From Amphiscolops sp. MND2022 (lineage: Eukaryota), in assembly GCA_964187785.1 (NCBI GenBank), contig OZ076418.1, forward strand, positions 55,304,001 through 55,368,000: a stretch of DNA of 64,000 nt. Direction: 5' to 3'. The notes below the pieces were generated by a model. The model was not told where the DNA came from. It did no database searches and saw only the letters and a list, made by a program, of their open reading frames with translations. Both the position numbers and the translations under genes were made by a program. Shown piece after piece: positions 3,854 through 53,082 of this stretch (positions are counted from its first letter, which is position 1; every line of letters begins with the position of its first letter).

Positions 3854-4394
3854 GGACTCAAGAAAAGAACACAGCTAAAAAACAGCACTAAAAGCTCAAA
3901 AAAGAGCAGTAAAAAGCATTAAAAGCTCCAAAACGGAGCACTAAGAGCTCAAAAGGAGCACAGAAAAACAAAAAGGAACGAAACAACCTGGCAGGAGTGA
4001 AGAGTTTCTTCTGGTTGCAGGCTGCTGCTCCTTCCTGTGCCTCGCCGCACCACTGAATAATGTAAAAGCTCAAGAGCTGTAAATCATACAATGCCGGCCG
4101 CTGAAATCCCTAACTAAAAATAGGGCTACCCAATCCAGAGTTGTCCGGGCTTACATAACACACCTATTTAATAAGTTTATCACAACAATTAAAAGAGGAT
4201 TGTGAAAACTTACCAATAGAAGGGACCCTGGCCAAAAGCAACCCGCGGATCTCGGACAGCCCTATCGAGTAGTTAAAATTAACGCTATAAATGATAAATT
4301 ACATGACTTCATTAAAATTGGTATGTAGCTAATAGTGTAGGAAAAGTAACCGCCCCCCCCGCATCGGTTGTAGTTAATGAGGATCCCAACTGGG

Positions 4395-5652
4395 TTAACA
4401 GTTGAGATTAGGGAACTCGCCACCCCTGGCCACGGCTCCAACCACTTGCCTCAGGGTGGTATTTGCATCTGCTGCGTTCGACCCTGCTCTAGTTTGGTAT
4501 GGGGTCACAGGCGCATCTGCAGGGGCAGTGTTGTCCAAGTTAAAGGTCACTGCATTGTTATTTGCCCCAGTGAGGTTCTTCATGAAATACATGCATGTGA
4601 AGTTCATCTGGAGTTGTGTCACCAGCCACATGGCAGTTGAACCAGCGTCCCTGTCAGTTGTGGCAAGGTTCCAGCTGCCTGAGTTGACCTCGTAGGTGTA
4701 CTGTGCATTGATGGCCGCCACTATGTCTTTTATTTTGAGCAAGGTGAGTACTGAGGCCTTGCCACTCGTTGGTCCGAATATGTTAAGGCAGACATCAGCC
4801 TTTAAGCCAGTCAGGTTGAACGGGTGTCCATAAAGGCCACCAACTGGACAGACTGGCCAGCCGAGTTCCCTCAAGTCTCTTATCAGCAGGTTAGTTACCA
4901 CCCTGCCTGGCTTGACCTGGAATGCCCTGAGGTACTTCTTCACCTTGGGTTCAGAGAGCTTGTCAAGCATGTATGCTGCAATGAACGGGTATATGCACTC
5001 GTTGACAGCATTGTTGTTTTCTGCAGCAACCGTCGCTGCCAGTGCATCATAGGCTTCCTTCACTCCACATGCTGTGGCCATCGCTTCTCCTTCGGCTGCA
5101 GTCTTGGCGCCTCTTGAGACTCCGTTCTTAATCCTCCGTTCACATCTGGGGAACATCTGTGCAGCCATTGCAGGGTCGGTCATAAATCTCGTTGAATTCA
5201 TCAAAGTACTCAGGCCCCACAGCTTCTGCATTGCGGTTGTTGGCATTTAGCCTCTTCTTGGCAGCTATCCCGGTGACTATTGCGGCCAGGTTGACCATCT
5301 GGTCATTAGGAATATTTGCCAAGTTGATGTTGGCGGGCACTGGTGCCAGAAACTTGTCGTATAGGCCATGCTTCACAATGAACTTGCCTATAATCAGCAA
5401 TAGCTTCTTGTAGTGGGCCGATCGCAAATTGGGATCATTTGCAATCGGGTACTCCAAAATGCTCTTGAAGATCGCCTCATACAGTGCTGTTCTGGCTGCT
5501 TCAGGCGCGGCGTTTATCCCCTGGACCATCAGAAGAGCATTTTGTCTCACTGGCTCATTTTGGGGACTATCATTTATGAGGGTCGCCATCTGTCGGCGGT
5601 GAGCAGCATCCCTTGCTGCTCTGCCATTATTTGCTACTGCTGCTTCCGCCAT
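4395..5652 (-). pseudogene. Array ORF copy 1, frameshifted
   Basis: 2-bp deletion near 5177 (gggtcggtcat vs gggtcgaggtcat) splits it into track ORFs 5140-5667 and 4395-5246; also M>K and terminal W>C. Confidence 0.9.
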
Positions 5653-6189: not shown

Positions 6190-6305
6190 TTTTAATGAAA
6201 ATGAGAAATGACAACTTATAGGGTCCATTTCATTGCTTGTTTGATTTGTCAGTGATGGGGGATTGGATTTAAAGTTATACTATTTTGAAATATACCTCCA
6301 ATTGG
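6190..6305 (-). promoter_or_regulatory. Putative Pol II core promoter of the array ORF (shown for unit 1; repeated in each unit)
   Basis: Minus-strand CCAAT at 6301-6305 and 6262-6266, TATAAG at 6215-6220, TCATT initiator-like at 6194-6198, followed by an AUG-free leader. Confidence 0.45.
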
Positions 6306-8312: not shown

Positions 8313-9569
8313 TTACCAGTTGAGATTAGGGAACTCGCCACCCCTGGCCACGGCTCCAACCACTTGCCTCAGGGTGGTATTTGCATCTGCTGCGTTCGAC
8401 CCTGCTCTAGTTTGGTATGGGGTCACAGGCGCATCTGCAGGGGCAGTGTTGTCCAAGTTAAAGGTCACTGCATTGTTATTTGCCCCAGTGAGGTTCTTCA
8501 TGAAATACATGCATGTGAAGTTCATCTGGAGTTGTGTCACCAGCCACATGGCAGTTGAACCAGCGTCCCTGTCAGTTGTGGCAAGGTTCCAGCTGCCTGA
8601 GTTGACCTCGTAGGTGTACTGTGCCTTGATGGCCGCCACTATGTCTTTTATTTTAAGCAAGGTGAGTACTGAGGCCTTGCCACTCGTTGGTCCGAATATG
8701 TTAAGGCAGACATCAGCCTTTAAGCCAGTCAGGTTGAACGGGTGTCCATAAAGGCCACCAACTGGACAGACTGGCCAGCCGAGTTCCCTCAAGTCTCTTA
8801 TCAGCAGGTTAGTTACCACCCTGCCTGGCTTGACCTGGAATGCCCTGAGGTACTTCTTCACCTTGGGATCAGAGAGCTTGTCAAGCATGTATGCTGCAAT
8901 GAACGGGTATATGCACTCGTTGACAGCATTGTTGTTTTCTGCAGCAACCGTCGCTGCCAGTGCATCATAGGCTTCCTTCACTCCACATGCTGTGGCCATC
9001 GCTTCTCCGGCTGCAGTCTTGGCGCCTCTTGAGACTCCGTTCTTAATCCTCCGTTCACATCTGGGGAACATCTGTGCAGCCATTGCAGGGTCGAGGTCAT
9101 AAATCTCGTTGAATTCATCAAAGTACTCAGGCCCCACAGCTTCTGCATTGCGGTTGTTGGCATTTAGCCTCTTCTTGGCAGCTATCCCGGTGACTATTGC
9201 GGCCAGGTTGACCATCTGGTCATTAGGAATATTTGCCAAGTTGATGTTGGCGGGCACTGGTGCCAGAAACATGTCGTATAGGCCATGCTTCACAATGAAC
9301 TTGCCTATAATCAGCAATAGCTTCTTGTAGTGGGCCGATCGCAAATTGGGATCATTTGCAATCGGGTACTCCAAAATGCTCTTGAAGATCGCCTCATACA
9401 GTGCTGTTCTGGCTGCTTCAGGCGCGGCGTTTATCCCCTGCACCATCAGAAGAGCATTTTGTCTCACTGGCTCATTTTGGGGACTATCATTTATGAGGGT
9501 CGCCATCTGTCGGCGGTGAGCAGCATCCCTTGCTGCTCTGCCATTATTTGCTACTGCTGCTTCCGCCAT
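8313..9569 (-). CDS. Array ORF copy 2, unknown protein (418 aa from ATG)
   Basis: Intronless ORF; ATG in gatATGg context (track start is an upstream TTG); in-frame 3-bp deletion. Confidence 0.8.
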   Translation of the reverse strand: MAEAAVANNGRAARDAAHRRQMATLINDSPQNEPVRQNALLMVQGINAAPEAARTALYEAIFKSILEYPIANDPNLRSAHYKKLLLIIGKFIVKHGLYDMFLAPVPANINLANIPNDQMVNLAAIVTGIAAKKRLNANNRNAEAVGPEYFDEFNEIYDLDPAMAAQMFPRCERRIKNGVSRGAKTAAGEAMATACGVKEAYDALAATVAAENNNAVNECIYPFIAAYMLDKLSDPKVKKYLRAFQVKPGRVVTNLLIRDLRELGWPVCPVGGLYGHPFNLTGLKADVCLNIFGPTSGKASVLTLLKIKDIVAAIKAQYTYEVNSGSWNLATTDRDAGSTAMWLVTQLQMNFTCMYFMKNLTGANNNAVTFNLDNTAPADAPVTPYQTRAGSNAADANTTLRQVVGAVARGGEFPNLNW

Positions 9570-11996: not shown

Positions 11997-13256
11997 TTAC
12001 CAGTTGAGATTAGGGAACTCGCCACCCCTGGCCACGGCTCCAACCACTTGCCTCAGGGTGGTATTTGCATCTGCTGCGTTCGACCCTGCTCTAGTTTGGT
12101 ATGGGGTCACAGGCGCATCTGCAGGGGCAGTGTTGTCCAAGTTAAAGGTCACTGCATTGTTATTTGCCCCAGTGAGGTTCTTCATGAAATACATGCATGT
12201 GAAGTTCATCTGGAGTTGTGTCACCAGCCACATGGCAGTTGAACCAGCGTCCCTGTCAGTTGTGGCAAGGTTCCAGCTGCCTGAGTTGACCTCGTAGGTG
12301 TACTGTGCATTGATGGCCGCCACTATGTCTTTTATTTTAAGCAAGGTGAGTACTGAGGCCTTGCCACTCGTTGGTCCGAATATGTTAAGGCAGACATCAG
12401 CCTTTAAGCCAGTCAGGTTGAACGGGTGTCCATAAAGGCCACCAACTGGACAGACTGGCCAGCCGAGTTCCCTCAAGTCTCTTATCAGCAGGTTAGTTAC
12501 CACCCTGCCTGGCTTGACCTGGAATGCCCTGAGGTACTTCTTCACCTTGGGTTCAGAGAGCTTGTCAAGCATGTATGCTGCAATGAACGGGTATATGCAC
12601 TCGTTGACAGCATTGTTGTTTTCTGCAGCAACCGTCGCTGCCAGTGCATCATAGGCTTCCTTCACTCCACATGCTGTGGCCATCGCTTCTCCTTCGGCTG
12701 CAGTCTTGGCGCCTCTTGAGACTCCGTTCTTAATCCTCCGTTCACATCTGGGGAACATCTGTGCAGCCATTGCAGGGTCGAGGTCATAAATCTCGTTGAA
12801 TTCATCAAAGTACTCAGGCCCCACAGCTTCTGCATTGCGGTTGTTGGCATTTAGCCTCTTCTTGGCAGCTATCCCGGTGACTATTGCGGCCAGGTTGACC
12901 ATCTGGTCATTAGGAATATTTGCCAAGTTGATGTTGGCGGGCACTGGTGCCAGAAACATGTCGTATAGGCCATGCTTCACAATGAACTTGCCTATAATCA
13001 GCAATAGCTTCTTGTAGTGGGCCGATCGCAAATTGGGATCATTTGCAATCGGGTACTCCAAAATGCTCTTGAAGATCGCCTCATACAGTGCTGTTCTGGC
13101 TGCTTCAGGCGCGGCGTTTATCCCCTGCACCATCAGAAGAGCATTTTGTCTCACTGGCTCATTTTGGGGACTATCATTTATGAGGGTCGCCATCTGTCGG
13201 CGGTGAGCAGCATCCCTTGCTGCTCTGCCATTATTTGCTACTGCTGCTTCCGCCAT
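11997..13256 (-). CDS. Array ORF copy 3, unknown 419-aa protein
   Basis: Intact ORF MAEAAVANN...GEFPNLNW. Confidence 0.8.
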   Translation of the reverse strand: MAEAAVANNGRAARDAAHRRQMATLINDSPQNEPVRQNALLMVQGINAAPEAARTALYEAIFKSILEYPIANDPNLRSAHYKKLLLIIGKFIVKHGLYDMFLAPVPANINLANIPNDQMVNLAAIVTGIAAKKRLNANNRNAEAVGPEYFDEFNEIYDLDPAMAAQMFPRCERRIKNGVSRGAKTAAEGEAMATACGVKEAYDALAATVAAENNNAVNECIYPFIAAYMLDKLSEPKVKKYLRAFQVKPGRVVTNLLIRDLRELGWPVCPVGGLYGHPFNLTGLKADVCLNIFGPTSGKASVLTLLKIKDIVAAINAQYTYEVNSGSWNLATTDRDAGSTAMWLVTQLQMNFTCMYFMKNLTGANNNAVTFNLDNTAPADAPVTPYQTRAGSNAADANTTLRQVVGAVARGGEFPNLNW

Positions 13257-16188
13257 ATCTATAAGGGTCAATAGGAGAAATCCGGAGGCGGAGGCAGAAC
13301 TGAAGGGGCAGAGGAGATAGGCAAATGAGAATAAGTTAAGCCTAATGAGGTATAATCTGGGTCACAGGGGCTCTGGTCAGGGTGACTGGTGGGGCAGAAC
13401 GGTCAAGTACGTTTGGAGTAGATGCTTTGTGGGAGTTTGTGCTGCGCAAGCTTTGGATAGGCCGTGAGGCTAATTAGAGTAAGTTGGGCCTAATGCTAGG
13501 GAGGATTTGTTATCCTGCGGGCTAGGCTATTCGGATGAATTGAGTGTAGCGTGACACCAAGTCATAGGCTTTCGCTCACTTGCTGGTTGGGCAGGTGGGA
13601 TATATTGTTTTGCAAGAATTAATGCTTTTAGGCTGAGTAGCCGAAGGGTGCTGAAATCGTAGGCTGAAAAGGCTGGATATGCTGTCAGCTAAAACAGACC
13701 AGTGGAATTCGGATTTGCTTTGGCAAAAAAGGTTTCAACGATTCCCTTGACACCAAAGCGCTTCGAGCTTTTAATACCGAAAGAAACGTGTTTTTTTAAT
13801 GAAAATGAGAAATGACAACTTATAGGGTCCATTTCATTGCTTGTTTGATTTGTCAGTGATGGGGGATTGGATTTAAAGTTATACTATTTTGAAATATACC
13901 TCCAATTGGCGAGAGACAATGAGGTATGGAAGTTGTTTGTCTTTCTTGCACGTGGGATGCCATTTGGGCTTCTATTTCTAGAAAAAAAAAACAAATTTAT
14001 TCAAGGGTCTCAGTATACGGTCAAGTAATTTTTTAAATGAATATGAAAGTTGAAATTAACCGTCGGGCGCTTGCTCAGTGGTGCTTTGTACTGAAGCTGC
14101 GATTGTTTGTCTTTCTTGCACGTGGGATGCCATTTGGGCTTCTATTTCTAGAAAAAAAAAACAAATTTATACAAGGGTCTCAGAATACGGTCAAGCAATT
14201 TTTTAAATCGAATATGAAAGTTGAAATTAACCGTCGGGCGCTTGCTCAGTGGTGATTTGTACTGAATATTCGATTGTTTGTCTTTCTTGCACGTGGGATG
14301 CCATTTGGGCTTCTATTTCTAGAAAAAAAAACAAATTTATACAAGGGTCTCAGAATACGGTCAAGCAATTTTTTAAATCGAATATGAAAGTTGAAATTAA
14401 CCGTCGGGCGCTTGCTCAGTGGTGCTTTGTACTGAATATTCGATTGTTTGTCTTTCTTGCACGTGGGATGCCATTTGTGCTTCTATTTCTAGAAAAAAAA
14501 ACAAATTTATACAAGGGTCTCAGAATACGGTCAAGCAATTTTTTAAATCGAATATGAAAGTTGAAATTAACCGTCGGGCGCTTGCTCAGTGGTGCTTTGT
14601 ACTGAATATTCGATTGTTTGTCTTCCTTGCACGTGGGATGCCATTTGTGCTTCTATTTCTAGAAAAAAAAACAAATTTATACAAGGGTCTCAGAATACAG
14701 TCAAGCAATTTTTTATCAGAATTTCCTTAATCTTTTTCTAACTCGAAAATCTTTTTCATACTGCGTTATTAGAATTTCCTTGAAATTTTCATGATCAAAA
14801 ATATTTTCATAATGCGTTATCAGAATTTCCTTAACCTTTTTCTAGCTCCGAAGTATTTTTCATACTGTGTTATCAGAATTCTCAAACTTCTAATTTAAAT
14901 TTTTTCCAGGTCTCTGCCACAGTCGCTTAAAAATAAGATCGCTTAGAAATAGAAACTCAACAAAAGTATCGGCGCACAGTTAAAATTGCTGAAATGCGTC
15001 TTTTGAGTGATTTTGGAAGTTTTTTATCCATACAAAAAAAATTGCATAACCAATGACAAGATCGAGAAAATCCAAGAAATTGGTAACATCTTAGAATCCA
15101 AAACACTAAGACGTCACCGATTTTTGGTTCTTCTATCCAAAATGTCCAAACATTTGTCTTTGCCTAATTTGTCTCAGAGTGTCATAAAGTTGTTTGAAAC
15201 TTAATTGCATTGTCACTTTTGTGCCATAATCGCATTAATATGTCCGAAAGAGGTGTAAGTTCATATAAATACTTACACTACTTGTTTGACGTTTTCAATT
15301 TGTTAAGAAAGGGGGCCGGATGCTGTTGGAAGCGGTGTTCGTGGGAATAATTCGAAATTAATTACTCAAATCACTCAAGAAACTGATCAGTTTTTTAGTG
15401 TCTTCGTAAATTCAAACTCATCAAACAATTCTAAAATCTTGTTCTGTATGTTCTAAAAAGATATAACAGTATTTAAGACTGGGACCAGACTACAACCTGT
15501 TCATATTTATTACTTGAAACAGATCATTGTATTTTTTTTAATTCTAAAACAATTTTCAAAATTATAGTCCGGGACCAGACTAGAACCTGTTCAAATATAG
15601 TACTTGAAACATATCGTTGTAAGTTTACATTCTAGAACGATTTTCAAAATTATAGTCCGGGACCAGACTTGAACCTGTTCAAATTTAGTACTTGAAACAT
15701 ATCGTTGTAAGTTTACATTCTAGAACGATATTCGGAATTTTAGTCCGGCACCAGACTAGAACCTGTTCAAATATAGTACTTGAAACATATCGTTGTAAGT
15801 TTACATTCTAGAAAGATATTCGGAATTTTAGTCCGGGACCAGACTAGAACCTGTTCAAATATAGTACTTGAAACATATCGTTGTAAGTTTAACATTCTAG
15901 AACGATTTTCAAAATTTTAGTCCGGGACAGACTAGAACGTGTTGCCCACACTGGTCGATATTTAAGTTCAACTAAAAATCTAACTTCAAAAAAATATCTC
16001 ATCATTCAAAAACAGTCAATTCAATTGAAGGAATTTGATAATTCAAACAGAGATAATACAACAGAAGATAATACAACATAGATAACAACTGAATTCTATA
16101 TGGTTATTCAAAATTCAATGGTGTAAACAACGAAACAAAAGTAACCGCCCCCCCGCATCGGTTGTAGTTAATGAGGATCCCAACTGGG

Positions 16189-17448
16189 TTACCAGTTGAG
16201 ATTAGGGAACTCGCCACCCCTGGCCACGGCTCCAACCACTTGCCTCAGGGTGGTATTTGCATCTGCTGCGTTCGACCCTGCTCTAGTTTGGTATGGGGTC
16301 ACAGGCGCATCTGCAGGGGCAGTGTTGTCCAAGTTAAAGGTCACTGCATTGTTATTTGCCCCAGTGAGGTTCTTCATGAAATACATGCATGTGAAGTTCA
16401 TCTGGAGTTGTGTCACCAGCCACATGGCAGTTGAACCAGCGTCCCTGTCAGTTGTGGCAAGGTTCCAGCTGCCTGAGTTGACCTCGTAGGTGTACTGTGC
16501 ATTGATGGCCGCCACTATGTCTTTTATTTTAAGCAAGGTGAGTACTGAGGCCTTGCCACTCGTTGGTCCGAATATGTTAAGGCAGACATCAGCCTTTAAG
16601 CCAGTCAGGTTGAACGGGTGTCCATAAAGGCCACCAACTGGACAGACTGGCCAGCCGAGTTCCCTCAAGTCTCTTATCAGCAGGTTAGTTACCACCCTGC
16701 CTGGCTTGACCTGGAATGCCCTGAGGTACTTCTTCACCTTGGGTTCAGAGAGCTTGTCAAGCATGTATGCTGCAATGAACGGGTATATGCACTCGTTGAC
16801 AGCATTGTTGTTTTCTGCAGCAACCATCGCTGCCAGTGCATCATAGGCTTCCTTCACTCCACATGCTGTGGCCATCGCTTCTCCTTCGGCTGCAGTCTTG
16901 GCGCCTCTTGAGACTCCGTTCTTAATCCTCCGTTCACATCTGGGGAACATCTGTGCAGCCATTGCAGGGTCGAGGTCATAAATCTCGTTGAATTCATCAA
17001 AGTACTCAGGCCCCACAGCTTCTGCATTGCGGTTGTTGGCATTTAGCCTCTTCTTGGCAGCTATCCCGGTGACTATTGCGGCCAGGTTGACCATCTGGTC
17101 ATTAGGAATATTTGCCAAGTTGATGTTGGCGGGCACTGGTGCCAGAAACATGTCGTATAGGCCATGCTTCACAATGAACTTGCCTATAATCAGCAATAGC
17201 TTCTTGTAGTGGGCCGATCGCAAATTGGGATCATTTGCAATCGGGTACTCCAAAATGCTCTTGAAGATCGCCTCATACAGTGCTGTTCTGGCTGCTTCAG
17301 GCGCGGCGTTTATCCCCTGCACCATCAGAAGAGCATTTTGTCTCACTGGCTCATTTTGGGGACTATCATTTATGAGGGTCGCCATCTGTCGGCGGTGAGC
17401 AGCATCCCTTGCTGCTCTGCCATTATTTGCTACTGCTGCTTCCGCCAT
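16189..17448 (-). CDS. Array ORF copy 4, unknown 419-aa protein
   Basis: Intact ORF. Confidence 0.8.
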   Translation of the reverse strand: MAEAAVANNGRAARDAAHRRQMATLINDSPQNEPVRQNALLMVQGINAAPEAARTALYEAIFKSILEYPIANDPNLRSAHYKKLLLIIGKFIVKHGLYDMFLAPVPANINLANIPNDQMVNLAAIVTGIAAKKRLNANNRNAEAVGPEYFDEFNEIYDLDPAMAAQMFPRCERRIKNGVSRGAKTAAEGEAMATACGVKEAYDALAAMVAAENNNAVNECIYPFIAAYMLDKLSEPKVKKYLRAFQVKPGRVVTNLLIRDLRELGWPVCPVGGLYGHPFNLTGLKADVCLNIFGPTSGKASVLTLLKIKDIVAAINAQYTYEVNSGSWNLATTDRDAGSTAMWLVTQLQMNFTCMYFMKNLTGANNNAVTFNLDNTAPADAPVTPYQTRAGSNAADANTTLRQVVGAVARGGEFPNLNW

Positions 17449-20378: not shown

Positions 20379-21638
20379 TTACCAGTTGAGATTAGGGAAC
20401 TCGCCACCCCTGGCCACGGCTCCAACCACTTGCCTCAGGGTGGTATTTGCATCTGCTGCGTTCGACCCTGCTCTAGTTTGGTATGGGGTCACAGGCGCAT
20501 CTGCAGGGGCAGTGTTGTCCAAGTTAAAGGTCACTGCATTGTTATTTGCCCCAGTGAGGTTCTTCATGAAATACATGCATGTGAAGTTCATCTGGAGTTG
20601 TGTCACCAGCCACATGGCAGTTGAACCAGCGTCCCTGTCAGTTGTGGCAAGGTTCCAGCTGCCTGAGTTGACCTCGTAGGTGTACTGTGCCTTGATGGCC
20701 GCCACTATGTCTTTTATTTTAAGCAAGGTGAGTACTGAGGCCTTGCCACTCGTTGGTCCGAATATGTTAAGGCAGACATCAGCCTTTAAGCCAGTCAGGT
20801 TGAACGGGTGTCCATAAAGGCCACCAACTGGACAGACTGGCCAGCCGAGTTCCCTCAAGTCTCTTATCAGCAGGTTAGTTACCACCCTGCCTGGCTTGAC
20901 CTGGAATGCCCTGAGGTACTTCTTCACCTTGGGTTCAGAGAGCTTGTCAAGCATGTATGCTGCAATGAACGGGTATATGCACTCGTTGACAGCATTGTTG
21001 TTTTCTGCAGCAACCGTCGCTGCCAGTGCATCATAGGCTTCCTTCACTCCACATGCTGTGGCCATCGCTTCTCCTTCGGCTGCAGTCTTGGCGCCTCTTG
21101 AGACTCCGTTCTTAATCCTCCGTTCACATCTGGGGAACATCTGTGCAGCCATTGCAGGGTCGAGGTCATAAATCTCGTTGAATTCATCAAAGTACTCAGG
21201 CCCCACAGCTTCTGCATTGCGGTTGTTGGCATTTAGCCTCTTCTTGGCAGCTATCCCGGTGACTATTGCGGCCAGGTTGACCATCTGGTCATTAGGAATA
21301 TTTGCCAAGTTGATGTTGGCGGGCACTGGTGCCAGAAACATGTCGTATAGGCCATGCTTCACAATGAACTTGTCTATAATCAGCAATAGCTTCTTGTAGT
21401 GGGCCGATCGCAAATTGGGATCATTTGCAATCGGGTACTCCAAAATGCTCTTGAAGATCGCCTCATACAGTGCTGTTCTGGCTGCTTCAGGCGCGGCGTT
21501 TATCCCCTGCACCATCAGAAGAGCATTTTGTCTCACTGGCACATTTTGGGGACTATCATTTATGAGGGTCGCCATCTGTCGGCGGTGAGCAGCATCCCTT
21601 GCTGCTCTGCCATTATTTGCTACTGCTGCTTCCGCCAT
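20379..21638 (-). CDS. Array ORF copy 5, unknown 419-aa protein
   Basis: Intact ORF. Confidence 0.8.
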   Translation of the reverse strand: MAEAAVANNGRAARDAAHRRQMATLINDSPQNVPVRQNALLMVQGINAAPEAARTALYEAIFKSILEYPIANDPNLRSAHYKKLLLIIDKFIVKHGLYDMFLAPVPANINLANIPNDQMVNLAAIVTGIAAKKRLNANNRNAEAVGPEYFDEFNEIYDLDPAMAAQMFPRCERRIKNGVSRGAKTAAEGEAMATACGVKEAYDALAATVAAENNNAVNECIYPFIAAYMLDKLSEPKVKKYLRAFQVKPGRVVTNLLIRDLRELGWPVCPVGGLYGHPFNLTGLKADVCLNIFGPTSGKASVLTLLKIKDIVAAIKAQYTYEVNSGSWNLATTDRDAGSTAMWLVTQLQMNFTCMYFMKNLTGANNNAVTFNLDNTAPADAPVTPYQTRAGSNAADANTTLRQVVGAVARGGEFPNLNW

Positions 21639-32629: not shown

Positions 32630-33889
32630 TTACCAGTTGAGATTAGGGAACTCGCCACCCCTGGCCACGGCTCCAACCACTTGCCTCAGGGTGGTATTTG
32701 CATCTGCTGCGTTCGACCCTGCTCTAGTTTGGTATGAGGTCACAGGCGCATCTGCAGGGGCAGTGTTGTCCAAGTTAAAGGTCACTGCATTGTTATTTGC
32801 CCCAGTGAGGTTCTTCATGAAATACATGCATGTGAAGTTCATCTGGAGTTGTGTCACCAGCCACATGGCAGTTGAACCAGCGTCCCTGTCAGTTGTGGCA
32901 AGGTTCCAGCTGCCTGAGTTGACCTCGTAGGTGTACTGTGCATTGATGGCCGCCACTATGTCTTTTATTTTAAGCAAGGTGAGTACTGAGGCCTTGCCAC
33001 TCGTTGGTCCGAATATGTTAAGGCAGACATCAGCCTTTAAGCCAGTCAGGTTGAACGGGTGTCCATAAAGGCCACCAACTGGACAGACTGGCCAGCCGAG
33101 TTCCCTCAAGTCTCTTATCAGCAGGTTAGTTACCACCCTGCCTGGCTTGACCTGGAATGCCCTGAGGTACTTCTTCACCTTGGGATCAGAGAGCTTGTCA
33201 AGCATGTATGCTGCAATGAACGGGTATATGCACTCGTTGACAGCATTGTTGTTTTCTGCAGCAACCGTCGCTGCCAGTGCATCATAGGCTTCCTTCACTC
33301 CACATGCTGTGGCCATCGCTTCTCCTTCGGCTGCAGTCTTGGCGCCTCTTGAGACTCCGTTCTTAATCCTCCGTTCACATCTGGGGAACATCTGTGCAGC
33401 CATTGCAGGGTCGAGGTCATAAATCTCGTTGAATTCATCAAAGTACTCAGGCCCCACAGCTTCTGCATTGCGGTTGTTGGCATTTAGCCTCTTCTTGGCA
33501 GCTATCCCGGTGACTATTGCGGCCAGGTTGACCATCTGGTCATTAGGAATATTTGCCAAGTTGATGTTGGCGGGCACTGGTGCCAGAAACATGTCGTATA
33601 GGCCATGCTTCACAATGAACTTGCCTATAATCAGCAATAGCTTCTTGTAATGGGCCGATCGCAAATTGGGATCATTTGCAATCGGGTACTCCAAAATGCT
33701 CTTGAAGATCGCCTCATACAGTGCTGTTCTGGCTGCTTCAGGCGCGGCGTTTATCCCCTGCACCATCAGAAGAGCATTTTGTCTCACTGGCTCATTTTGG
33801 GGACTATCATTTATGAGGGTCGCCATCTGTCGGCGGTGAGCAGCATCCCTTGCTGCTCTGCCATTATTTGCTACTGCTGCTTCCGCCAT
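32630..33889 (-). CDS. Array ORF copy 8, unknown 419-aa protein
   Basis: Intact ORF. Confidence 0.8.
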   Translation of the reverse strand: MAEAAVANNGRAARDAAHRRQMATLINDSPQNEPVRQNALLMVQGINAAPEAARTALYEAIFKSILEYPIANDPNLRSAHYKKLLLIIGKFIVKHGLYDMFLAPVPANINLANIPNDQMVNLAAIVTGIAAKKRLNANNRNAEAVGPEYFDEFNEIYDLDPAMAAQMFPRCERRIKNGVSRGAKTAAEGEAMATACGVKEAYDALAATVAAENNNAVNECIYPFIAAYMLDKLSDPKVKKYLRAFQVKPGRVVTNLLIRDLRELGWPVCPVGGLYGHPFNLTGLKADVCLNIFGPTSGKASVLTLLKIKDIVAAINAQYTYEVNSGSWNLATTDRDAGSTAMWLVTQLQMNFTCMYFMKNLTGANNNAVTFNLDNTAPADAPVTSYQTRAGSNAADANTTLRQVVGAVARGGEFPNLNW

Positions 33890-36819: not shown

Positions 36820-38079
36820 TTACCAGTTGAGATTAGGGAACTCGCCACCCCTGGCCACGGCTCCAACCACTTGCCTCAGGGTGGTATTTGCATCTGCTGC
36901 GTTCGACCCTGCTCTAGTTTGGTATGGGGTCACAGGCGCATCTGCAGGGGCAGTGTTGTCCAAGTTAAAGGTCACTGCATTGTTATTTGCCCCAGTGAGG
37001 TTCTTCATGAAATACATGCATGTGAAGTTCATCTGGAGTTGTGTCACCAGCCACATGGCAGTTGAACCAGCGTCCCTGTCAGTTGTGGCAAGGTTCCAGC
37101 TGCCTGAGTTGACCTCGTAGGTGTACTGTGCATTGATGGCCGCCACTATGTCTTTTATTTTAAGCAAGGTGAGTACTGAGGCCTTGCCACTCGTTGGTCC
37201 GAATATGTTGAGGCAGACATCAGCCTTTAAGCCAGTCAGGTTGAACGGGTGTCCATAAAGGCCACCAACTGGACAGACTGGCCAGCCGAGTTCCCTCAAG
37301 TCTCTTATCAGCAGGTTAGTTACCACCCTGCCTGGCTTGACCTGGAATGCCCTGAGGTACTTCTTCACCTTGGGATCAGAGAGCTTGTCAAGCATGTATG
37401 CTGCAATGAACGGGTATATGCACTCGTTGACAGCATTGTTGTTTTCTGCAGCAACCGTCGCTGCCAGTGCATCATAGGCTTCCTTCACTCCACATGCTGT
37501 GGCCATCGCTTCTCCTTCGGCTGCAGTCTTGGCGCCTCTTGAGACTCCGTTCTTAATCCTCCGTTCACATCTGGGGAACATCTGTGCAGCCATTGCAGGG
37601 TCGAGGTCATAAATCTCGTTGAATTCATCAAAGTACTCAGGCCCCACAGCTTCTGCATTGCGGTTGTTGGCATTTAGCCTCTTCTTGGCAGCTATCCCGG
37701 TGACTATTGCGGCCAGGTTGACCATCTGGTCATTAGGAATATTTGCCAAGTTGATGTTGGCGGGCACTGGTGCCAGAAACATGTCGTATAGGCCATGCTT
37801 CACAATGAACTTGCCTATAATCAGCAATAGCTTCTTGTAGTGGGCCGATCGCAAATTGGGATCATTTGCAATCGGGTACTCCAAAATGCTCTTGAAGATC
37901 GCCTCATACAGTGCTGTTCTGGCTGCTTCAGGCGCGGCGTTTATCCCCTGCACCATCAGAAGAGCATTTTGTCTCACTGGCTCATTTTGGGGACTATCAT
38001 TTATGAGGGTCGCCATCTGTCGGCGGTGAGCAGCATCCCTTGCTGCTCTGCCATTATTTGCTACTGCTGCTTCCGCCAT
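36820..38079 (-). CDS. Array ORF copy 9, unknown 419-aa protein
   Basis: Intact ORF. Confidence 0.8.
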   Translation of the reverse strand: MAEAAVANNGRAARDAAHRRQMATLINDSPQNEPVRQNALLMVQGINAAPEAARTALYEAIFKSILEYPIANDPNLRSAHYKKLLLIIGKFIVKHGLYDMFLAPVPANINLANIPNDQMVNLAAIVTGIAAKKRLNANNRNAEAVGPEYFDEFNEIYDLDPAMAAQMFPRCERRIKNGVSRGAKTAAEGEAMATACGVKEAYDALAATVAAENNNAVNECIYPFIAAYMLDKLSDPKVKKYLRAFQVKPGRVVTNLLIRDLRELGWPVCPVGGLYGHPFNLTGLKADVCLNIFGPTSGKASVLTLLKIKDIVAAINAQYTYEVNSGSWNLATTDRDAGSTAMWLVTQLQMNFTCMYFMKNLTGANNNAVTFNLDNTAPADAPVTPYQTRAGSNAADANTTLRQVVGAVARGGEFPNLNW

Positions 38080-41010: not shown

Positions 41011-42270
41011 TTACCAGTTGAGATTAGGGAACTCGCCACCCCTGGCCACGGCTCCAACCACTTGCCTCAGGGTGGTATTTGCATCTGCTGCGTTCGACCC
41101 TGCTCTAGTTTGGTATGGGGTCACAGGCGCATCTGCAGGGGCAGTGTTGTCCAAGTTAAAGGTCACTGCATTGTTATTTGCCCCAGTGAGGTTCTTCATG
41201 AAATACATGCATGTGAAGTTCATCTGGAGTTGTGTCACCAGCCACATGGCAGTTGAACCAGCGTCCCTGTCAGTTGTGGCAAGGTTCCAGCTGCCTGAGT
41301 TGACCTCGTAGGTGTACTGTGCATTGATGGCCGCCACTATGTCTTTTATTTTAAGCAAGGTGAGTACTGAGGCCTTGCCACTCGTTGGTCCGAATATGTT
41401 AAGGCAGACATCAGCCTTTAAGCCAGTCAGGTTGAACGGGTGTCCATAAAGGCCACCAACTGGACAGACTGGCCAGCCGAGTTCCCTCAAGTCTCTTATC
41501 AGCAGGTTAGTTACCACCCTGCCTGGCTTGACCTGGAATGCCCTGAGGTACTTCTTCACCTTGGGTTCAGAGAGCTTGTCAAGCATGTATGCTGCAATGA
41601 ACGGGTATATGCACTCGTTGACAGCATTGTTGTTTTCTGCAGCAACCGTCGCTGCCAGTGCATCATAGGCTTCCTTCACTCCACATGCTGTGGCCATCGC
41701 TTCTCCTTCGGCTACAGTCTTGGCGCCTCTTGAGACTCCGTTCTTAATCCTCCGTTCACATCTGGGGAACATCTGTGGAGCCATTGCAGGGTCGAGGTCA
41801 TAAATCTCGTTGAATTCATCAAAGTACTCAGGCCCCACAGCTTCTGCATTGCGGTTGTTGGCATTTAGCCTCTTCTTGGCAGCTATCCCGGTGACTATTG
41901 CGGCCAGGTTGACCATCTGGTCATTAGGAATATTTGCCAAGTTGATGTTGGCGGGCACTGGTGCCAGAAACATGTCGTATAGGCCATGCTTCACAATGAA
42001 CTTGCCTATAATCAGCAATAGCTTCTTGTAGTGGGCCGATCGCAAATTGGGATCATTTGCAATCGGGTACTCCAAAATGCTCTTGAAGATCGCCTCATAC
42101 AGTGCTGTTCTGGCTGCTTCAGGCGCGGCGTTTATCCCCTGCACCATCAGAAGAGCATTTTGTCTCACTGGCTCATTTTGGGGACTATCATTTATGAGGG
42201 TCGCCATCTGTCGGCGGTGAGCAGCATCCCTTGCTGCTCTGCCATTATTTGCTACTGCTGCTTCCGCCAT
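41011..42270 (-). CDS. Array ORF copy 10, unknown 419-aa protein
   Basis: Intact ORF. Confidence 0.8.
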   Translation of the reverse strand: MAEAAVANNGRAARDAAHRRQMATLINDSPQNEPVRQNALLMVQGINAAPEAARTALYEAIFKSILEYPIANDPNLRSAHYKKLLLIIGKFIVKHGLYDMFLAPVPANINLANIPNDQMVNLAAIVTGIAAKKRLNANNRNAEAVGPEYFDEFNEIYDLDPAMAPQMFPRCERRIKNGVSRGAKTVAEGEAMATACGVKEAYDALAATVAAENNNAVNECIYPFIAAYMLDKLSEPKVKKYLRAFQVKPGRVVTNLLIRDLRELGWPVCPVGGLYGHPFNLTGLKADVCLNIFGPTSGKASVLTLLKIKDIVAAINAQYTYEVNSGSWNLATTDRDAGSTAMWLVTQLQMNFTCMYFMKNLTGANNNAVTFNLDNTAPADAPVTPYQTRAGSNAADANTTLRQVVGAVARGGEFPNLNW

Positions 42271-44866: not shown

Positions 44867-46126
44867 TTACCAGTTGAGATTAGGGAACTCGCCACCCCTG
44901 GCCACGGCTCCAACCACTTGCCTCAGGGTGGTATTTGCATCTTCTGCGTTCGACCCTGCTCTAGTTTGGTATGGGGTCACAGGCGCATCTGCAGGGGCAG
45001 TGTTGTCCAAGTTAAAGGTCACTGCATTGTTATTTGCCCCAGTGAGGTTCTTCATGAAATACATGAATGTGAAGTTCATCTGGAGTTGTGTCACCAGCCA
45101 CATGGCAGTTGAACCAGCGTCCCTGTCAGTTGTGGCAAGGTTCCAGCTGCCTGAGTTGACCTCGTAGGTGTACTGTGCATTGATGGCCGCCACTATGTCT
45201 TTTATTTCAAGCAAGGTGAGTACTGAGGCCTTGCCACTCGTTGGTCCGAATATGTTGAGGCAGACATCAGCCTTTAAGCCAGTCAGGTTGAACGGGTGTC
45301 CATAAAGGCCACCAACTGGACAGACTGGCCAGCCGAGTTCCCTCAAGTCTCTTATCAGCAGGTTAGTTACCACCCTGCCTGGCTTGACCTGGAATGCCCT
45401 GAGGTACTTCTTCACCTTGGGATCAGAGAGCTTGTCAAGCATGTATGCTGCAATGAACGGGTATATGCACTCGTTGACAGCATTGTTGTTTTCTGCAGCA
45501 ACCGTCGCTGCCAGTGCATCATAGGCTTCCTTCACTCCACATGCTGTGGCCATCGCTTCTCCTTCGGCTGCAGTCTTGGCGCCTCTTGAGACTCCGTTCT
45601 TAATCCTCCGTTCACATCTGGGGAACATCTGTGCAGCCATTGCAGGGTCGAGGTCATAAATCTCGTTGAATTCATCAAAGTACTCAGGCCCCACAGCTTC
45701 TGCATTGCGGTTGTTGGCATTTAGCCTCTTCTTGGCAGCTATCCCGGTGACTATTGCGGCCAGGTTGACCATCTGGTCATTAGGAATATTTGCCAAGTTG
45801 ATGTTGGCGGGCACTGGTGCCAGAAACATGTCGTATAGGCCATGCTTCACAATGAACTTGCCTATAATCAGCAATAGCTTCTTGTAGTGGGCCGATCGCA
45901 AATTGGGATCATTTGCAATCGGGTACTCCAAAATGCTCTTGAAGATCGCCTCATACAGTGCTGTTCTGGCTGCTTCAGGCGCGGCGTTTATGCCCTGCAC
46001 CATCAGAAGAGCATTTTGTCTCACTGGCTCATTTTGGGGACTATCATTTATGAGGGTCGCCATCTGTCGGCGGTGAGCAGCATCCCTTGCTGCTCTGCCA
46101 TTATTTGCTACTGCTGCTTCCGCCAT
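44867..46126 (-). CDS. Array ORF copy 11, unknown 419-aa protein
   Basis: Intact ORF. Confidence 0.8.
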   Translation of the reverse strand: MAEAAVANNGRAARDAAHRRQMATLINDSPQNEPVRQNALLMVQGINAAPEAARTALYEAIFKSILEYPIANDPNLRSAHYKKLLLIIGKFIVKHGLYDMFLAPVPANINLANIPNDQMVNLAAIVTGIAAKKRLNANNRNAEAVGPEYFDEFNEIYDLDPAMAAQMFPRCERRIKNGVSRGAKTAAEGEAMATACGVKEAYDALAATVAAENNNAVNECIYPFIAAYMLDKLSDPKVKKYLRAFQVKPGRVVTNLLIRDLRELGWPVCPVGGLYGHPFNLTGLKADVCLNIFGPTSGKASVLTLLEIKDIVAAINAQYTYEVNSGSWNLATTDRDAGSTAMWLVTQLQMNFTFMYFMKNLTGANNNAVTFNLDNTAPADAPVTPYQTRAGSNAEDANTTLRQVVGAVARGGEFPNLNW

Positions 46127-49008: not shown

Positions 49009-50268
49009 TTACCAGTTGAGATTAGGGAACTCGCCACCCCTGGCCACGGCTCCAACCACTTGCCTCAGGGTGGTATTTGCATCTGCTGCGTTCGACCCTG
49101 CTCTAGTTTGGTATGGGGTCACAGGCGCATCTGCAGGGGCAGTGTTGTCCAAGTTAAAGGTCACTGCATTGTTATTTGCCCCAGTGAGGTTCTTCATGAA
49201 ATACATGCATGTGAAGTTCATCTGGAGTTGTGTCACCAGCCACATGGCAGTTGAACCAGCGTCCCTGTCAGTTGTGGCAAGGTTCCAGCTGCCTGAGTTG
49301 ACCTCGTAGGTGTACTGTGCATTGATGGCCGCCACTATGTCTTTTATTTTAAGCAAGGTGAGTACTGAGGCCTTGCCACTCGTTGGTCCGAATATGTTAA
49401 GGCAGACATCAGCCTTTAAGCCAGTCAGGTTGAACGGGTGTCCATAAAGGCCACCAACTGGACAGACTGGCCAGCCGAGTTCCCTCAAGTCTCTTATCAG
49501 CAGGTTAGTTACCACCCTGCCTGGCTTGACCTGGAATGCCCTGAGGTACTTCTTCACCTTGGGTTCAGAGAGCTTGTCAAGCATGTATGCTGCAATGAAC
49601 GGGTATATGCACTCGTTGACAGCATTGTTGTTTTCTGCAGCAACCGTCGCTGCCAGTGCATCATAGGCTTCCTTCACTCCACATGCTGTGGCCATCGCTT
49701 CTCCTTCGGCTGCAGTCTTGGCGCCTCTTGAGACTCCGTTCTTAATCCTCCGTTCACATCTGGGGAACATCTGTGGAGCCATTGCAGGGTCGAGGTCATA
49801 AATCTCGTTGAATTCATCAAAGTACTCAGGCCCCACAGCTTCTGCATTGCGGTTGTTGGCATTTAGCCTCTTCTTGGCAGCTATCCCGGTGACTATTGCG
49901 GCCAGGTTGACCATCTGGTCATTAGGAATATTTGCCAAGTTGATGTTGGCGGGCACTGGTGCCAGAAACATGTCGTATAGGCCATGCTTCACAATGAACT
50001 TGCCTATAATCAGCAATAGCTTCTTGTAGTGGGCCGATCGCAAATTGGGATCATTTGCAATCGGGTACTCCAAAATGCTCTTGAAGATCGCCTCATACAG
50101 TGCTGTTCTGGCTGCTTCAGGCGCGGCGTTTATCCCCTGCACCATCAGAAGAGCATTTTGTCTCACTGGCTCATTTTGGGGACTATCATTTATGAGGGTC
50201 GCCATCTGTCGGCGGTGAGCAGCATCCCTTGCTGCTCTGCCATTATTTGCTACTGCTGCTTCCGCCAT
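49009..50268 (-). CDS. Array ORF copy 12, unknown 419-aa protein
   Basis: Intact ORF. Confidence 0.8.
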   Translation of the reverse strand: MAEAAVANNGRAARDAAHRRQMATLINDSPQNEPVRQNALLMVQGINAAPEAARTALYEAIFKSILEYPIANDPNLRSAHYKKLLLIIGKFIVKHGLYDMFLAPVPANINLANIPNDQMVNLAAIVTGIAAKKRLNANNRNAEAVGPEYFDEFNEIYDLDPAMAPQMFPRCERRIKNGVSRGAKTAAEGEAMATACGVKEAYDALAATVAAENNNAVNECIYPFIAAYMLDKLSEPKVKKYLRAFQVKPGRVVTNLLIRDLRELGWPVCPVGGLYGHPFNLTGLKADVCLNIFGPTSGKASVLTLLKIKDIVAAINAQYTYEVNSGSWNLATTDRDAGSTAMWLVTQLQMNFTCMYFMKNLTGANNNAVTFNLDNTAPADAPVTPYQTRAGSNAADANTTLRQVVGAVARGGEFPNLNW

Positions 50269-53082
50269 ATCTATAAGGGTCAATAGGAGAAATCCGGAGG
50301 CGAAGGCAGAACTGAAGGGGCAGAGGAGATAGGCAAATGAGAATAAGTTAAGCCTAATGAGGGATAATCTGGGTCACAGGTGCTCTGGTCAGGGTGACTG
50401 GTGGGGCAGAACGGTCAAGTACGTTTGGAGTAGATGCTTTGTGGGAGTTTGTGCTGCGCAAGCTTTGGATAGGCCGTGAGGCTAATTAGAGTAAGTTGGG
50501 CCTAATGCTAGGGAGGATTTGTTATCCTGCGGGCTAGGCTATTCGGATGAATTGAGTGTAGCGTGACACCAAGTCACAGGCTTTCGCTCACTTGCTGGTT
50601 GGGCAGGTGGGATATATTGTTTTGCAAGAATTAATGCTTTTAGGCTGAGTAGCCGAAGGGTGCTGAAATCGTAGGCTGAAAAGGCTGGATATGCTGTCAG
50701 CTAAAACAGACCAGTGGAATTCGGATTTGCTTTGGCAAAAAAGGTTTCAACGATTCCCTTGACACCAAAGCGCTTCGAGCTTTTAATACTGAAAGAAACG
50801 TGTTTTTTTAATGAAAATGAGAAATGACAACTTTTAGGGTCCATTTCATTGCTTGTTTGATTTGTCAGTGATGGGGGATTGGATTTAAAGTTATACTATT
50901 TTGAAATATACCTCCAATTGGCGAGAGACAATGAGGTATGGAAGTTGTTTGTCTTTCTTGCACGTGGGATGCCATTTGGGCTTCTATTTCTAGAAAAAAA
51001 AACAAATTTATTCAAGGGTCTCAGTATACGGTCAAGTAATTTTTTAAATGAATATGAAAGTTGAAATTAACCGTCGGGCGCTTGCTCAGTGGTGCTTTGT
51101 ACTGAAGCTGCGATTGTTTGTCTTTCTTGCACGTGGGATGCCATTTGGGCTTCTATTTCTAGAAAAAAAAACAAATTTATACAAGGGTCTCAGAATACGG
51201 TCAAGCAATTTTTTAAATCGAATATGAAAGTTGAAATTAACCGTCGGGCGCTTGCTCAGTGGTGATTTGTACTGAATATTCGATTGTTTGTCTTTCTTGC
51301 ACGTGGGATGCCATTTGGGCTTCTATTTCTAGAAAAAAAAATTTATACAAGGGTCTCAGAATACGGTCAAGCAATTTTTTAAATCGAATATGAAAGTTGA
51401 AATTAACCGTCGGGCGCTTGCTCAGTGGTGCTTTGTACTGAATATTCGATTGTTTGTCTTTCTTGCACGTGGGATGCCATTTGTGCTTCTATTTCTAGAA
51501 AAAAAACAAATTTATACAAGGGTCTCAGAATACGGTCAAGCAATTTTTTAAATCGAATATGAAAGTTGAAATTAACCGTCGGGCGCTTGCTCAGTGGTGC
51601 TTTGTACTGAATATTCGATTGTTTGTCTTTCTTGCACGTGGGATGCCATTTGTGCTTCTATTTCTAGAAAAAAAAACAAATTTATACAAGGGTCTCAGAA
51701 TACAGTCGAGCAATTTTTTATCAGAATTTCCTTAATCTTTTTCTAACTCCGAAGTATTTTTCATACTGTGTTATCAGAATTCTCAAACTTCTAATTTAAA
51801 TTTTTTCCAGGTCTCCGCCACAGTCGCTTAAAAATAAGATCGCTTAGAAATAGAAACTCAACAAAAGTATCGGCGCACAGTTAAAATTGCTGAAATGCGT
51901 CTTTTGAGTGATTTTGGAAGTTTTTTATCCATACAAAAAAATTTGCATAACCAATGACAAGATCGAGAAAATCCAAGAAATTGGTAACATCTTAGAATCC
52001 AAAACACTAAGACGTCACCGATTTTTGGTTCTTCTATCCAAAATGTCCAAACATTTGTCTTTGCCTAATTTGTCTCAGAGTGTCATAAAGTTGTTTGAAA
52101 CTTAATTGCATTGTCACTTTTGTGCCATAATCGCATTAATATGTCCGAAAGAGGTGTAAGTTCATATAAATACTTACACTACTTGTTTGACGTTTTCAAT
52201 TTGTTAAGAAAGGGGGCCGGATGCTGTTGGAAGCGGTGTTCGTGGGAATAATTCGAAATTAATTACTCAAATCACTCAAGAAACTGATCAGTTTTTTGGT
52301 GTCTTCGTAAATTCAAACTCATCAAATAATTCTAAAATCTTGTTCTGTATGTTCTAAAAAGATATAACAGTATTTAAGACTGGGACCAGACTACAACCTG
52401 TTCATATTTATTACTTGAAACAGATCATTGTATTTTTTTTTAATTCTAAAACAATTTTCAAAATTATAGTCCGGGACCAGACTAGAACCTGTTCAAATAT
52501 AGTACTTGAAACATATCGTTGTAAGTTTACATTCTAGAACGATTTTCAAAATTATAGTCCGGGACCAGACTAGAACCTGTTCAAATTTAGTACTTGAAAC
52601 ATATCGTTGTAAGTTTACATTCTAGAACGATATTCGGAATTTTAGTCCGGCACCAGACTAGAACCTGTTCAAATATAGTACTTGAAACATATCGTTGTAA
52701 GTTTACATTCTAGAACGATATTCGGAATTTTAGTCCGGGACCAGACTAGAACCTGTTCAAATATAGTACTTGAAACATATCGTTGTAAGTTTAACATTCT
52801 AGAACGATTTTCAAAATTTTAGTCCGGGACAGACTAGAACGTGTTGCCCACACTGGTCGATATTTAAGTTCAACTAAAAATCTAACTTCAAAAAAATATC
52901 TCATCATTCAAAAACAGTCAATTCAATTGAAGGAATTTGATAATTCAAACAGAGATAATACAACAGAAGATAATACAACATAGATAACAACTGAATTCTA
53001 TATGGTTATTCAAAATTCAATGGTGTAAACAACGAAACAACATAAAATACAAGCTAGTCACTAGATGAGTCCGAATCATTCC

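What the first reader, a model, noticed from the sequence alone, without database searches (positions are those of the whole stretch)
4342..53040. Coding macrosatellite: 12 tandem copies of an intronless orphan ~419-aa gene
Seen: 12 head-to-tail ~4-kb units, each with one minus-strand ORF (10 open; both indels in open copies are 3 bp). The ORF and its leader are visibly GC-richer than the AT-rich spacers and have no introns, whereas neighbouring genes appear spliced. I recognise no host domain. Established: gene-bearing macrosatellites exist (D4Z4/DUX4, RS447/USP17), and RNA-virus nucleoprotein genes (Mononegavirales N proteins are roughly 370-450 aa) are often endogenised via retroelement RT. 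Inference: the Ala/Asn-rich protein with a basic middle segment could be a captured viral nucleoprotein/capsid or a Gag/ORF1-like protein amplified for dosage (antiviral decoy, small-RNA source or selfish element). The family assignment is unproven.
Basis: partly seen in the sequence, partly recalled or inferred. Interest (0 to 1): 0.88.

Follow-up and report, generated by a model that had tools for sequence, protein, structure and literature searches.

The report
Orphan RNA captured at spliced leaders
The twelve tandem gene copies derive from a 2-kb cassette, likely a piece of an unknown RNA virus, that sits at three places in this genome fused to the host's spliced leader and a retroelement message, and whose tail is predicted to base-pair with that leader.

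Summary
The array is real: 12 units, 10 open 418-419-codon ORFs. The gene lies in a ~1.97-2.0-kb cassette (5' hairpin, AUG-poor ~500-nt leader, ORF, ~200-nt trailer) found at three loci. The three variants are 77-81% identical in protein, with near-saturated synonymous sites (dN/dS about 0.05-0.07).

At each locus the trailer joins the same point of the host spliced leader (SL, lacking its first 4 nt), followed by a retroelement message. Two partners are LINE subfamilies 99% identical to cassette-free copies; the third is an LTR env RNA joined at its splice acceptor. One cassette+LINE insertion has a 12-bp target-site duplication. No parent gene was found in the assembly. CpG o/e is 0.33-0.47, below all 23 host and transposon controls. 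The trailer ends in an imperfect complement of the SL.

Best reading: three recent retro-captures of an outside RNA, likely an RNA-virus segment, two of them later tandemly amplified. Array copies vary neutrally (19 nonsynonymous, 5 synonymous), so open frames show youth, not function. The protein family is unassigned and expression is untested.

The parts
4342..53040 (-). Tandem array of 12 units. Each unit = about 2.2 kb of host repeat DNA plus the 5' 1.8 kb of the cassette; units 2-12 break off about 55 nt after the stop codon
4192..6158 (-). Unit 1: the only complete cassette in the window (1967 nt: hairpin, leader, ORF with a 2-bp deletion, full 201-nt trailer)
11997..13256 (-). 419-codon orphan ORF, unit 3 (other open copies: 8313-9569, 16189-17448, 20379-21638, 28605-29861, 32630-33889, 36820-38079, 41011-42270, 44867-46126, 49009-50268; frameshifted: units with ATG at 5652 and 25663)
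13257..13762 (-). 506-nt AUG-poor leader (unit 3; 1 ATG against 5.3 expected)
13688..13762 (-). Conserved 5' block (87-91% identical among the three loci, more than the ORF). Predicted terminal hairpin with one compensatory pair; ends in TTTTAG, a possible trans-splice acceptor (inferred). Found only at the 16 cassette copies
4200..4219 (-). Imperfect complement of the spliced leader (anti-SL) at the end of the cassette trailer
4164..4191 (-). Spliced-leader exon lacking its first 4 nt (28 nt); junction between cassette and LINE
1..4163 (-). Non-LTR retrotransposon, 99% identical to dispersed cassette-free copies: ORF1 3245-3826; RT ORF about 181-3219 split over three frames; 3' end truncated just beyond the window start
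13763..16136 (.). AT-rich spacer (unit 3): host repeat flank plus 170-, 53- and 88-bp satellites; the 175 nt next to the hairpin match a repeat on other contigs at 73-89%
57466..58101 (-). Displaced 13th fragment: spacer end plus last 50 codons of the ORF, between two copies of a 4.45-kb duplication

Best explanation
The array is a young tandem amplification of a 2-kb cassette that was likely copied from an RNA living outside the chromosomes, most likely a non-polyadenylated segment or message of an unknown RNA virus, and that is fused to the 5' spliced leader of a host LINE message. Steps: (1) SHOWN: host retroelement copies begin with the SL, and SL RNA genes are in the genome. (2) SHOWN: three divergent cassette variants are each joined at the same SL position to a different young retroelement RNA, and one such insertion has a 12-bp target-site duplication, so cassette and LINE entered in one event. 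(3) INFERRED: the variants diverged under purifying selection before capture, in a replicon not present in this assembly; low CpG favours a negative-strand virus, and size plus a helical low-confidence model fit a nucleoprotein. (4) PREDICTED: the anti-SL in the trailer pairs with the SL, in trans on host messages or in cis with an SL-like 3' arm, and so would steer the LINE reverse transcriptase to cross over at the SL; RNA-level joining before copying is not excluded. (5) SHOWN: amplification came later at DNA level, because units 2-12 include flanking host repeats and lack the trailer end, and the copies have varied neutrally since. Any host benefit (small RNAs, decoy protein) is untested.
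For: Only three loci encode the protein: 12 + 3 + 1 full copies, no spliced or older parent among 19 matches. Between variants pS is 0.65-0.76, dN 0.10-0.17, dN/dS 0.052 and 0.068 where computable. The partner LINEs are 98.9-99.2% (6 of 6) and 99.1-99.7% (6 of 6) identical to cassette-free copies. The 28-nt junction motif is the SL published for an acoel (PMC9911081, passages); there are 1678 exact genomic hits, including arrays with a GTAAGT donor and an Sm-like site. The C11 junction falls exactly on the CAG acceptor in 7 of 7 cassette-free LTR-element copies that matched the probe (12 fetched); that element's env hits PF24664. The C10:54.82-Mb insertion is flanked by a 12-bp duplication absent from 5 of 5 empty sites printed (9 fetched). 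There is no poly(A) at any junction. 22 of 26 ordinary SL-led LINE copies keep the SL's first bases and 0 of 3 cassette junctions do. Anti-SL/SL duplex is -17.0, -15.5 and -16.1 kcal/mol, matched by 1 of 2000 dinucleotide shuffles each and by 0 of 36 control flanks. CpG o/e is 0.47, 0.34, 0.33 against 0.64-1.12 in 11 actin-family exons and 0.75-1.38 in 12 other ORFs. Negative-strand viruses are CpG-poor whatever the host (PMC10714974, passages). A broken relative at 36-58% identity exists on ENA contigs of another record and was not found in this genome.
Against: No sequence or fold link to any virus: Pfam, PDB sequences, 1.84 billion representatives gave only the 4 hits named, Atlas blank. 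AlphaFold models were too poor to test fold (pLDDT 36.6 and 37.7). No second segment shares the hairpin (16 hits) or the anti-SL junction (5 hits; none among 18 other rare SL junctions). No 5'/3' panhandle above chance (37-113 of 500 shuffles), though the true 3' end is hidden by the junction. A 500-nt leader is unusual for a negative-strand nucleoprotein message (own knowledge). Cassette divergence (70% nt) is similar to the divergence of the two LINE subfamilies (65-68%), which a long-lived composite element would also give. One of 18 further control flanks (L210) pairs with the SL as strongly (-17.2). The three anti-SL copies are homologous, so not independent. Only one of three loci shows a target-site duplication. 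A parent could be missing from a haploid assembly.
Confidence: 0.6

Rival explanations
1. A low-copy genomic hitchhiker of SL trans-splicing. A genomic [cassette-SL-partner] transcript is either kept whole, because the anti-SL hides the SL's terminal AG from the spliceosome, or released as an outron ending in an SL copy. The 28-nt identity then lets a LINE reverse transcriptase move it onto new SL-capped partners. No virus is needed today.
For: Identical junction three times, first SL bases always missing. The anti-SL folds back on the adjacent SL in cis. Partners are all retroelement RNAs. Cassette and LINE divergences are alike in two loci.
Against: No parent or intermediate copy for any of three young insertions. 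CpG is far below that of resident transposon ORFs. Near-saturated synonymous sites with only three lineages. Strong purifying selection on the protein of a non-autonomous passenger needs a cis-acting role, which is not shown.
Confidence: 0.2
2. The source is a transcript of a DNA virus, episome or intracellular symbiont of the animal, captured by the same route.
For: Absence of a parent fits any extrachromosomal source. Polinton-like sequence is abundant and hosts one insertion.
Against: No poly(A) at the junctions and a defined 5' hairpin start at three loci. No hit among viral or metagenome contigs (limited sensitivity). Low CpG differs from the Polinton-region ORF tested (1.38).
Confidence: 0.1
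3. An old host orphan gene family kept for function and amplified for dosage, as a coding macrosatellite of the D4Z4/RS447 kind (names recalled, as given by the first reader).
For: 10 of 12 frames open; two of three loci were tandemly amplified; strong purifying selection between loci.
Against: Within the array there are 19 nonsynonymous and 5 synonymous variable sites, against 76% nonsynonymous expected under neutrality (p = 0.72 for a deficit). The ORF has 19.2 variable sites per kb against 21.0 in spacer. The insertion at C10:54.82 Mb interrupts a repeat whose empty copies are up to 98% identical, so that locus is young although its synonymous sites are saturated.
Confidence: 0.08
4. The array is an assembly artefact of one copy.
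For: The only other record of these proteins is one ENA contig, probably not independent. Read depth untested.
Against: 24 variable sites and 4 indels in the ORF, unit-specific satellite counts and shared derived variants among units.
Confidence: 0.02

Closest known systems
Non-retroviral endogenous viral nucleoprotein genes: odin of Chaoborus americanus (PMC6620529, passages) and EBLNs (PMC4964890, passages)
   Same: Single viral-type gene of similar size copied into the genome; odin is in tandem copies; EBLNs are attributed to LINE-1 reverse transcription.
   Different: Those match known viruses, while this protein matches nothing. Here the whole 2-kb RNA with its ends is kept, fused head-on to an SL-bearing retroelement RNA, three times at one junction, with an anti-SL element.
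5'-chimeric retrocopies (noncoding RNA-LINE-1 chimeras; template jumping by R2 reverse transcriptase; PMC8857657, passages)
   Same: A foreign RNA placed 5' of a LINE in the same orientation and inserted in one event. That paper notes the human chimeras arise by RNA pre-ligation, which is a rival route here.
   Different: The passenger is a 2-kb coding RNA with no genomic parent found, the join is inside a spliced leader, and one partner is an LTR env message.
SL-associated non-LTR elements (NeSL, CRE) and the HERO clade (PMC4640811, passages)
   Same: Partner LINEs have one RT ORF with a C-terminal motif that recalls restriction-like endonuclease elements (recalled) and are tied to SL sequence.
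   Different: These LINEs are dispersed with unique flanks and start with a whole SL, as expected of trans-spliced templates, rather than inserting into SL genes. Clade not tested.
Coding macrosatellites D4Z4/DUX4 and RS447/USP17 (recalled; no call)
   Same: Multi-kb tandem units, each with an intronless ORF.
   Different: No host family, very young, neutral within-array variation, origin from a captured RNA.

Membership tests
Non-retroviral endogenous RNA-virus element | Detectable homology to a protein of a known RNA virus | tested here: inconclusive
   No hit in Pfam, PDB, viral contigs, representatives or Atlas; only three full-length sequences, so distant homology is out of reach
Non-retroviral endogenous RNA-virus element | Integration through a retroelement (adjacent retroelement, target-site duplication) | tested here: met
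   Retroelement RNA partner at 3 of 3 loci; 12-bp duplication at 1 of 3
Non-retroviral endogenous RNA-virus element | No cellular parent gene; composition unlike host | tested here: met
   No parent among 19 matches in this assembly; CpG o/e below 23 of 23 controls. Other haplotypes not examined
Non-retroviral endogenous RNA-virus element | Cognate exogenous virus with an RdRp | not testable with these tools
   No RNA run listed. An orthomyxo-like PB1 is reported from S. roscoffensis transcriptomes (PMC10101049, PMC12277240; passages), with no link to this cassette
Negative-strand virus nucleoprotein | Two-lobed all-helical N fold with RNA-binding groove | tested here: inconclusive
   Models mostly helical but pLDDT under 40; Foldseek no E <= 0.001; VIA no Z >= 8
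Segmented negative-strand virus segment | Complementary termini (panhandle) | tested here: inconclusive
   5'/3' duplex not above shuffles; native 3' end may be lost at the SL junction or the RNA may be a message
LINE ORF1/Gag-like gene | Carried by the full-length members of the element family | tested here: not met
   12 of 12 fetched near-identical LINE copies lack it; most start at the SL
Functional coding macrosatellite | Purifying selection on the ORF among array copies | tested here: not met
   19 N: 5 S, neutral expectation 76% N; ORF as variable as spacer; redundancy could mask selection
Functional coding macrosatellite | Expression as RNA or protein | not testable with these tools
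   No RNA run listed
Spliced leader exon | Identical short 5' sequence on unrelated RNAs, joined at AG acceptors, with an SL RNA gene bearing a GT donor and Sm site | tested here: met
HERO clade (partner LINE) | RT phylogeny with HERO references | not tested
   RVT_1 hit only; the clade name is a recalled resemblance

The most novel reading that the evidence does not exclude
The cassette comes from a new kind of RNA parasite that exploits spliced-leader trans-splicing. Its 3' end pairs with or mimics the host SL, to borrow caps from host messages or to act as an oversized SL exon spliced onto them. The three genomic copies would be fossils of those chimeric RNAs and the first molecular record of an SL-exploiting virus or selfish RNA in an animal.
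Probability: 0.3. Interest if true: 0.92.

Novelty: new variant of a known kind. Interest (0 to 1): 0.74.

Why it matters
It points to an unknown replicon lineage in Xenacoelomorpha whose protein has no detectable relatives, and preserves three near-complete RNAs with their ends, so the live agent can be looked for directly in RNA data. The repeated join at the spliced leader, plus a conserved anti-SL, makes a testable case that RNA parasites use or mimic trans-splicing leaders, and it suggests a route to endogenisation specific to SL-using animals. As a by-product, many LINE families here carry the SL as their 5' end. My paper searches for SL plus RNA virus plus cap-snatching (0 papers), SL plus retrotransposon plus template switching and acoel plus SL plus retrotransposon showed no such description in their listings; most subscription papers are not covered.

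Tried and rejected
Homology: Pfam, PDB by sequence and by profile (only globins at E >= 0.04, taken as noise), ESM Atlas whole and part, word-index protein searches, viral contigs and metagenome contigs gave nothing beyond the three variants and the broken relative. Structure: two AlphaFold runs were low confidence, and the fold searches were uninformative. Homodimer prediction gave no answer. Expression: no RNA holder listed. RdRp copies in the genome: PB1 and Bunya_RdRp families found nothing, with no positive control. Rfam: no family for the hairpin, only two weak matches at E 0.71 and 1.3. A reverse-strand or leader ORF was rejected: longest stop-free reverse frame 131 codons, not shared among variants. 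A terminal panhandle was not supported. Other captured segments with the same ends were not found. My first idea that the ORF is a regular first ORF of the LINE was rejected. My first idea that the junction motif was a poly(A) signal or the RNA's own end was rejected once it proved to be the SL. By eye, residues 263-266 and 339-342 sit where the hinge and central motif of Mononegavirales N lie (recalled, no call); the PDB profile search gave no support, so it is only a lead. The archive of earlier findings returned nothing. A paper search on RNA ligation in LINE chimeras was not completed, so that route rests on one passage.
Full report
Observation. Self-comparison shows 12 units between 4342 and 53040, mostly 98-99.5% identical, with unit lengths of about 3.7-4.2 kb. 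Ten ORFs are open (418-419 aa); units 1 and 6 have 2-bp deletions and units 2 and 7 have 3-bp deletions. Spacers are AT-rich and built of 170-, 53- and 88-bp satellites whose copy numbers differ between units. A 13th 3' fragment lies at 57952-58101.

The protein. It has no Pfam family, no PDB relative and no usable Atlas hit. A word-index search of 5.8 billion proteins returned only itself and two variants at 80% and 77%. A full HMMER scan of 1.84 billion representatives added three pieces, which with a fourth cluster member (P0018-P0021, 36-58% identity) tile residues about 1-370 and come from two ENA contigs. They look like a broken relative and were not found in this genome. AlphaFold gave mostly helical, low-confidence models (pLDDT 36.6 with 3 sequences, 37.7 with 7), and fold searches were uninformative. 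The family is therefore unassigned.

Three loci. The 1.07-Gb genome holds the gene at three places: this array, three tandem copies on C11 (81% identity, 5.65-kb unit) and one copy at C10:54.82 Mb (77%); the four copies outside the window are all open. Homology extends beyond the ORF to a cassette of 1967-2001 nt. It starts sharply at a ~75-nt block that is 87-91% identical among loci and occurs only at the 16 cassette copies. The block is predicted to form a hairpin with one compensatory pair among three sequences, which is thin evidence. Flank comparisons place the 5' end at the hairpin foot in all three loci, after 2-16 extra bases. The ~500-540-nt leader has 1, 1 and 2 ATGs against 5.3, 7.0 and 6.4 expected. 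The trailer is 197-201 nt.

The junction. In unit 1 and at both other loci the trailer runs into the same 28-nt motif, with no poly(A). The motif is the invariant 5' end of many dispersed LINE copies of different subfamilies. A full-text search found it in two versions of one paper, as the spliced leader of the acoel Symsagittifera roscoffensis, in which 30.2% of genes are trans-spliced (PMC9911081, passages). The host is thus an acoel using this leader. The genome has 1678 exact hits, including tandem arrays in which the exon is followed by GTAAGT and an Sm-like site. In the window the SL leads into a LINE 98.9-99.2% identical to 6 of 6 fetched cassette-free copies. At C10:54.82 Mb it leads into another subfamily (ORF1 62% identical), 99.1-99.7% identical to 6 of 6 copies. 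On C11 it leads into the env region of an LTR element (PF24664), exactly at a CAG acceptor seen in 7 of 7 cassette-free copies that matched the probe, of 12 fetched. The C10:54.82-Mb cassette+SL+LINE block is flanked by a 12-bp duplication that is single in 5 of 5 empty sites printed, of 9 fetched; the target is Polinton-like (A32 ATPase nearby). So at that locus cassette and LINE were inserted together, recently. For the window the same is inferred from the identical junction; its LINE is 3'-truncated, so no duplication can be read.

Old divergence, young insertions. Between variants, synonymous sites are near saturation (pS 0.65-0.76), dN is 0.10-0.17 and dN/dS is 0.052 and 0.068 in the two computable pairs. 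Young retrocopies should have a near-identical parent; none was found. CpG o/e is 0.47, 0.34 and 0.33, against 0.64-1.12 in 11 host actin-family exons and 0.75-1.38 in 12 other, mostly transposon, ORFs. Negative-strand RNA viruses, Bunyavirales above all, are CpG-poor whatever the host, while dsRNA viruses and invertebrate positive-strand viruses tend not to be (PMC10714974, passages). This favours, without proving, a negative-strand source. An orthomyxo-like virus is reported from S. roscoffensis transcriptomes (PMC10101049, PMC12277240, passages), with no link to this cassette. Against this reading: no viral homologue, no panhandle, no sister segment, and cassette divergence (70% nt) resembles that of the two LINE subfamilies (65-68%).

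The anti-SL. The last 40 nt of each trailer pair with the SL at -17.0, -15.5 and -16.1 kcal/mol. Each is matched by 1 of 2000 dinucleotide shuffles and by 0 of 36 flanks of ordinary SL-led copies. One of 18 further flanks does as well, and in the C11 variant two internal windows score slightly better. By eye, two of the varying paired positions change only between A and G opposite an SL U, as expected for pairing with a fixed partner. All three junctions lack the first four SL bases, which 22 of 26 ordinary LINE copies keep; the junction type is rare, 22 places against 1678. A plain end-to-end jump at the cap would keep those bases. Three routes remain: a switch by the LINE reverse transcriptase guided by pairing or by an SL-like 3' arm (my estimate about half); the cassette RNA acting as an extended SL donor; or RNA ligation before copying, as noted for human LINE-1 chimeras (PMC8857657, passages). 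The genome alone cannot separate them.

The array. Units 2-12 contain upstream host repeat DNA and end about 55 nt after the stop codon, without the anti-SL or SL, so amplification followed insertion at DNA level. The ORF has 19 nonsynonymous and 5 synonymous variable sites, against 76% nonsynonymous expected under neutrality (p = 0.72 for a deficit; two of the 19 fall in one codon). It has 19.2 variable sites per kb against 21.0 in spacer, and mean pairwise divergence is 0.4%. Open frames are thus explained by youth. That two of three loci were amplified may hint at selection, as for the tandem odin gene (PMC6620529, passages), or at small-RNA or decoy roles as for EBLNs (PMC4964890, passages). 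But local tandem duplication is common here, for example the 4.45-kb pair at 53012-62536, and expression could not be tested.

Verdict. A real, young array of a retro-captured orphan RNA. It works like a non-retroviral endogenous viral element (about 0.6), but membership fails to be shown for want of any viral homologue. The new element is the repeated SL junction with a conserved anti-SL. Papers were seen as search listings or passages, as stated (PMC9984361 as abstract and outline only, not used); no supplements were read, and the SL RNA structure figure of PMC9911081 is in a supplement I did not open.

Noticed in passing
L049-L088, L104-L114 (many G000 contigs): Several unrelated retroelement families begin with a complete spliced leader; 22 of 26 LINE copies keep its first bases. 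The integrated SL ends in AG and could serve as acceptor for a fresh SL, a promoter-free way to define the element's 5' end (inferred).
   Followed up: partly
G000:C1:16.23-16.42 Mb (L115-L133): Tandem SL RNA gene array, about 904-bp period, with GTAAGT donor, an intronic complement of the exon and an Sm-like site; several copies have other sequence upstream.
   Followed up: partly
L110 (C1:11.04 Mb) and L209 (C7:14.37 Mb): A family in which the SL is followed at once by its own near-complement, forming a hairpin.
   Followed up: no
L021:7577-9724 (C11:40.55 Mb): LTR-element env of the Monjiviricetes fusion-glycoprotein family (PF24664), expressed through an SL acceptor; the retrocopy ends in a fold-back inverted duplication.
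   Followed up: partly
window 53012-57461 and 58089-62536: A 4.45-kb direct duplication (99.5%) next to the array, with 300- and 94-bp tandem repeats and short ORFs of no Pfam family; the displaced array fragment lies between the two copies.
   Followed up: no
window 4342-4365 and the same place in each unit: A G-tract of variable length (about 6-15) beside the array breakpoint, shortly after the stop codon; the other two variants lack it.
   Followed up: no
L025-L027 (C10:54.81-54.83 Mb): Polinton-like region with two A32 ATPase ORF copies, interrupted by the cassette+LINE insertion, whose 965-codon RT frame is open.
   Followed up: partly
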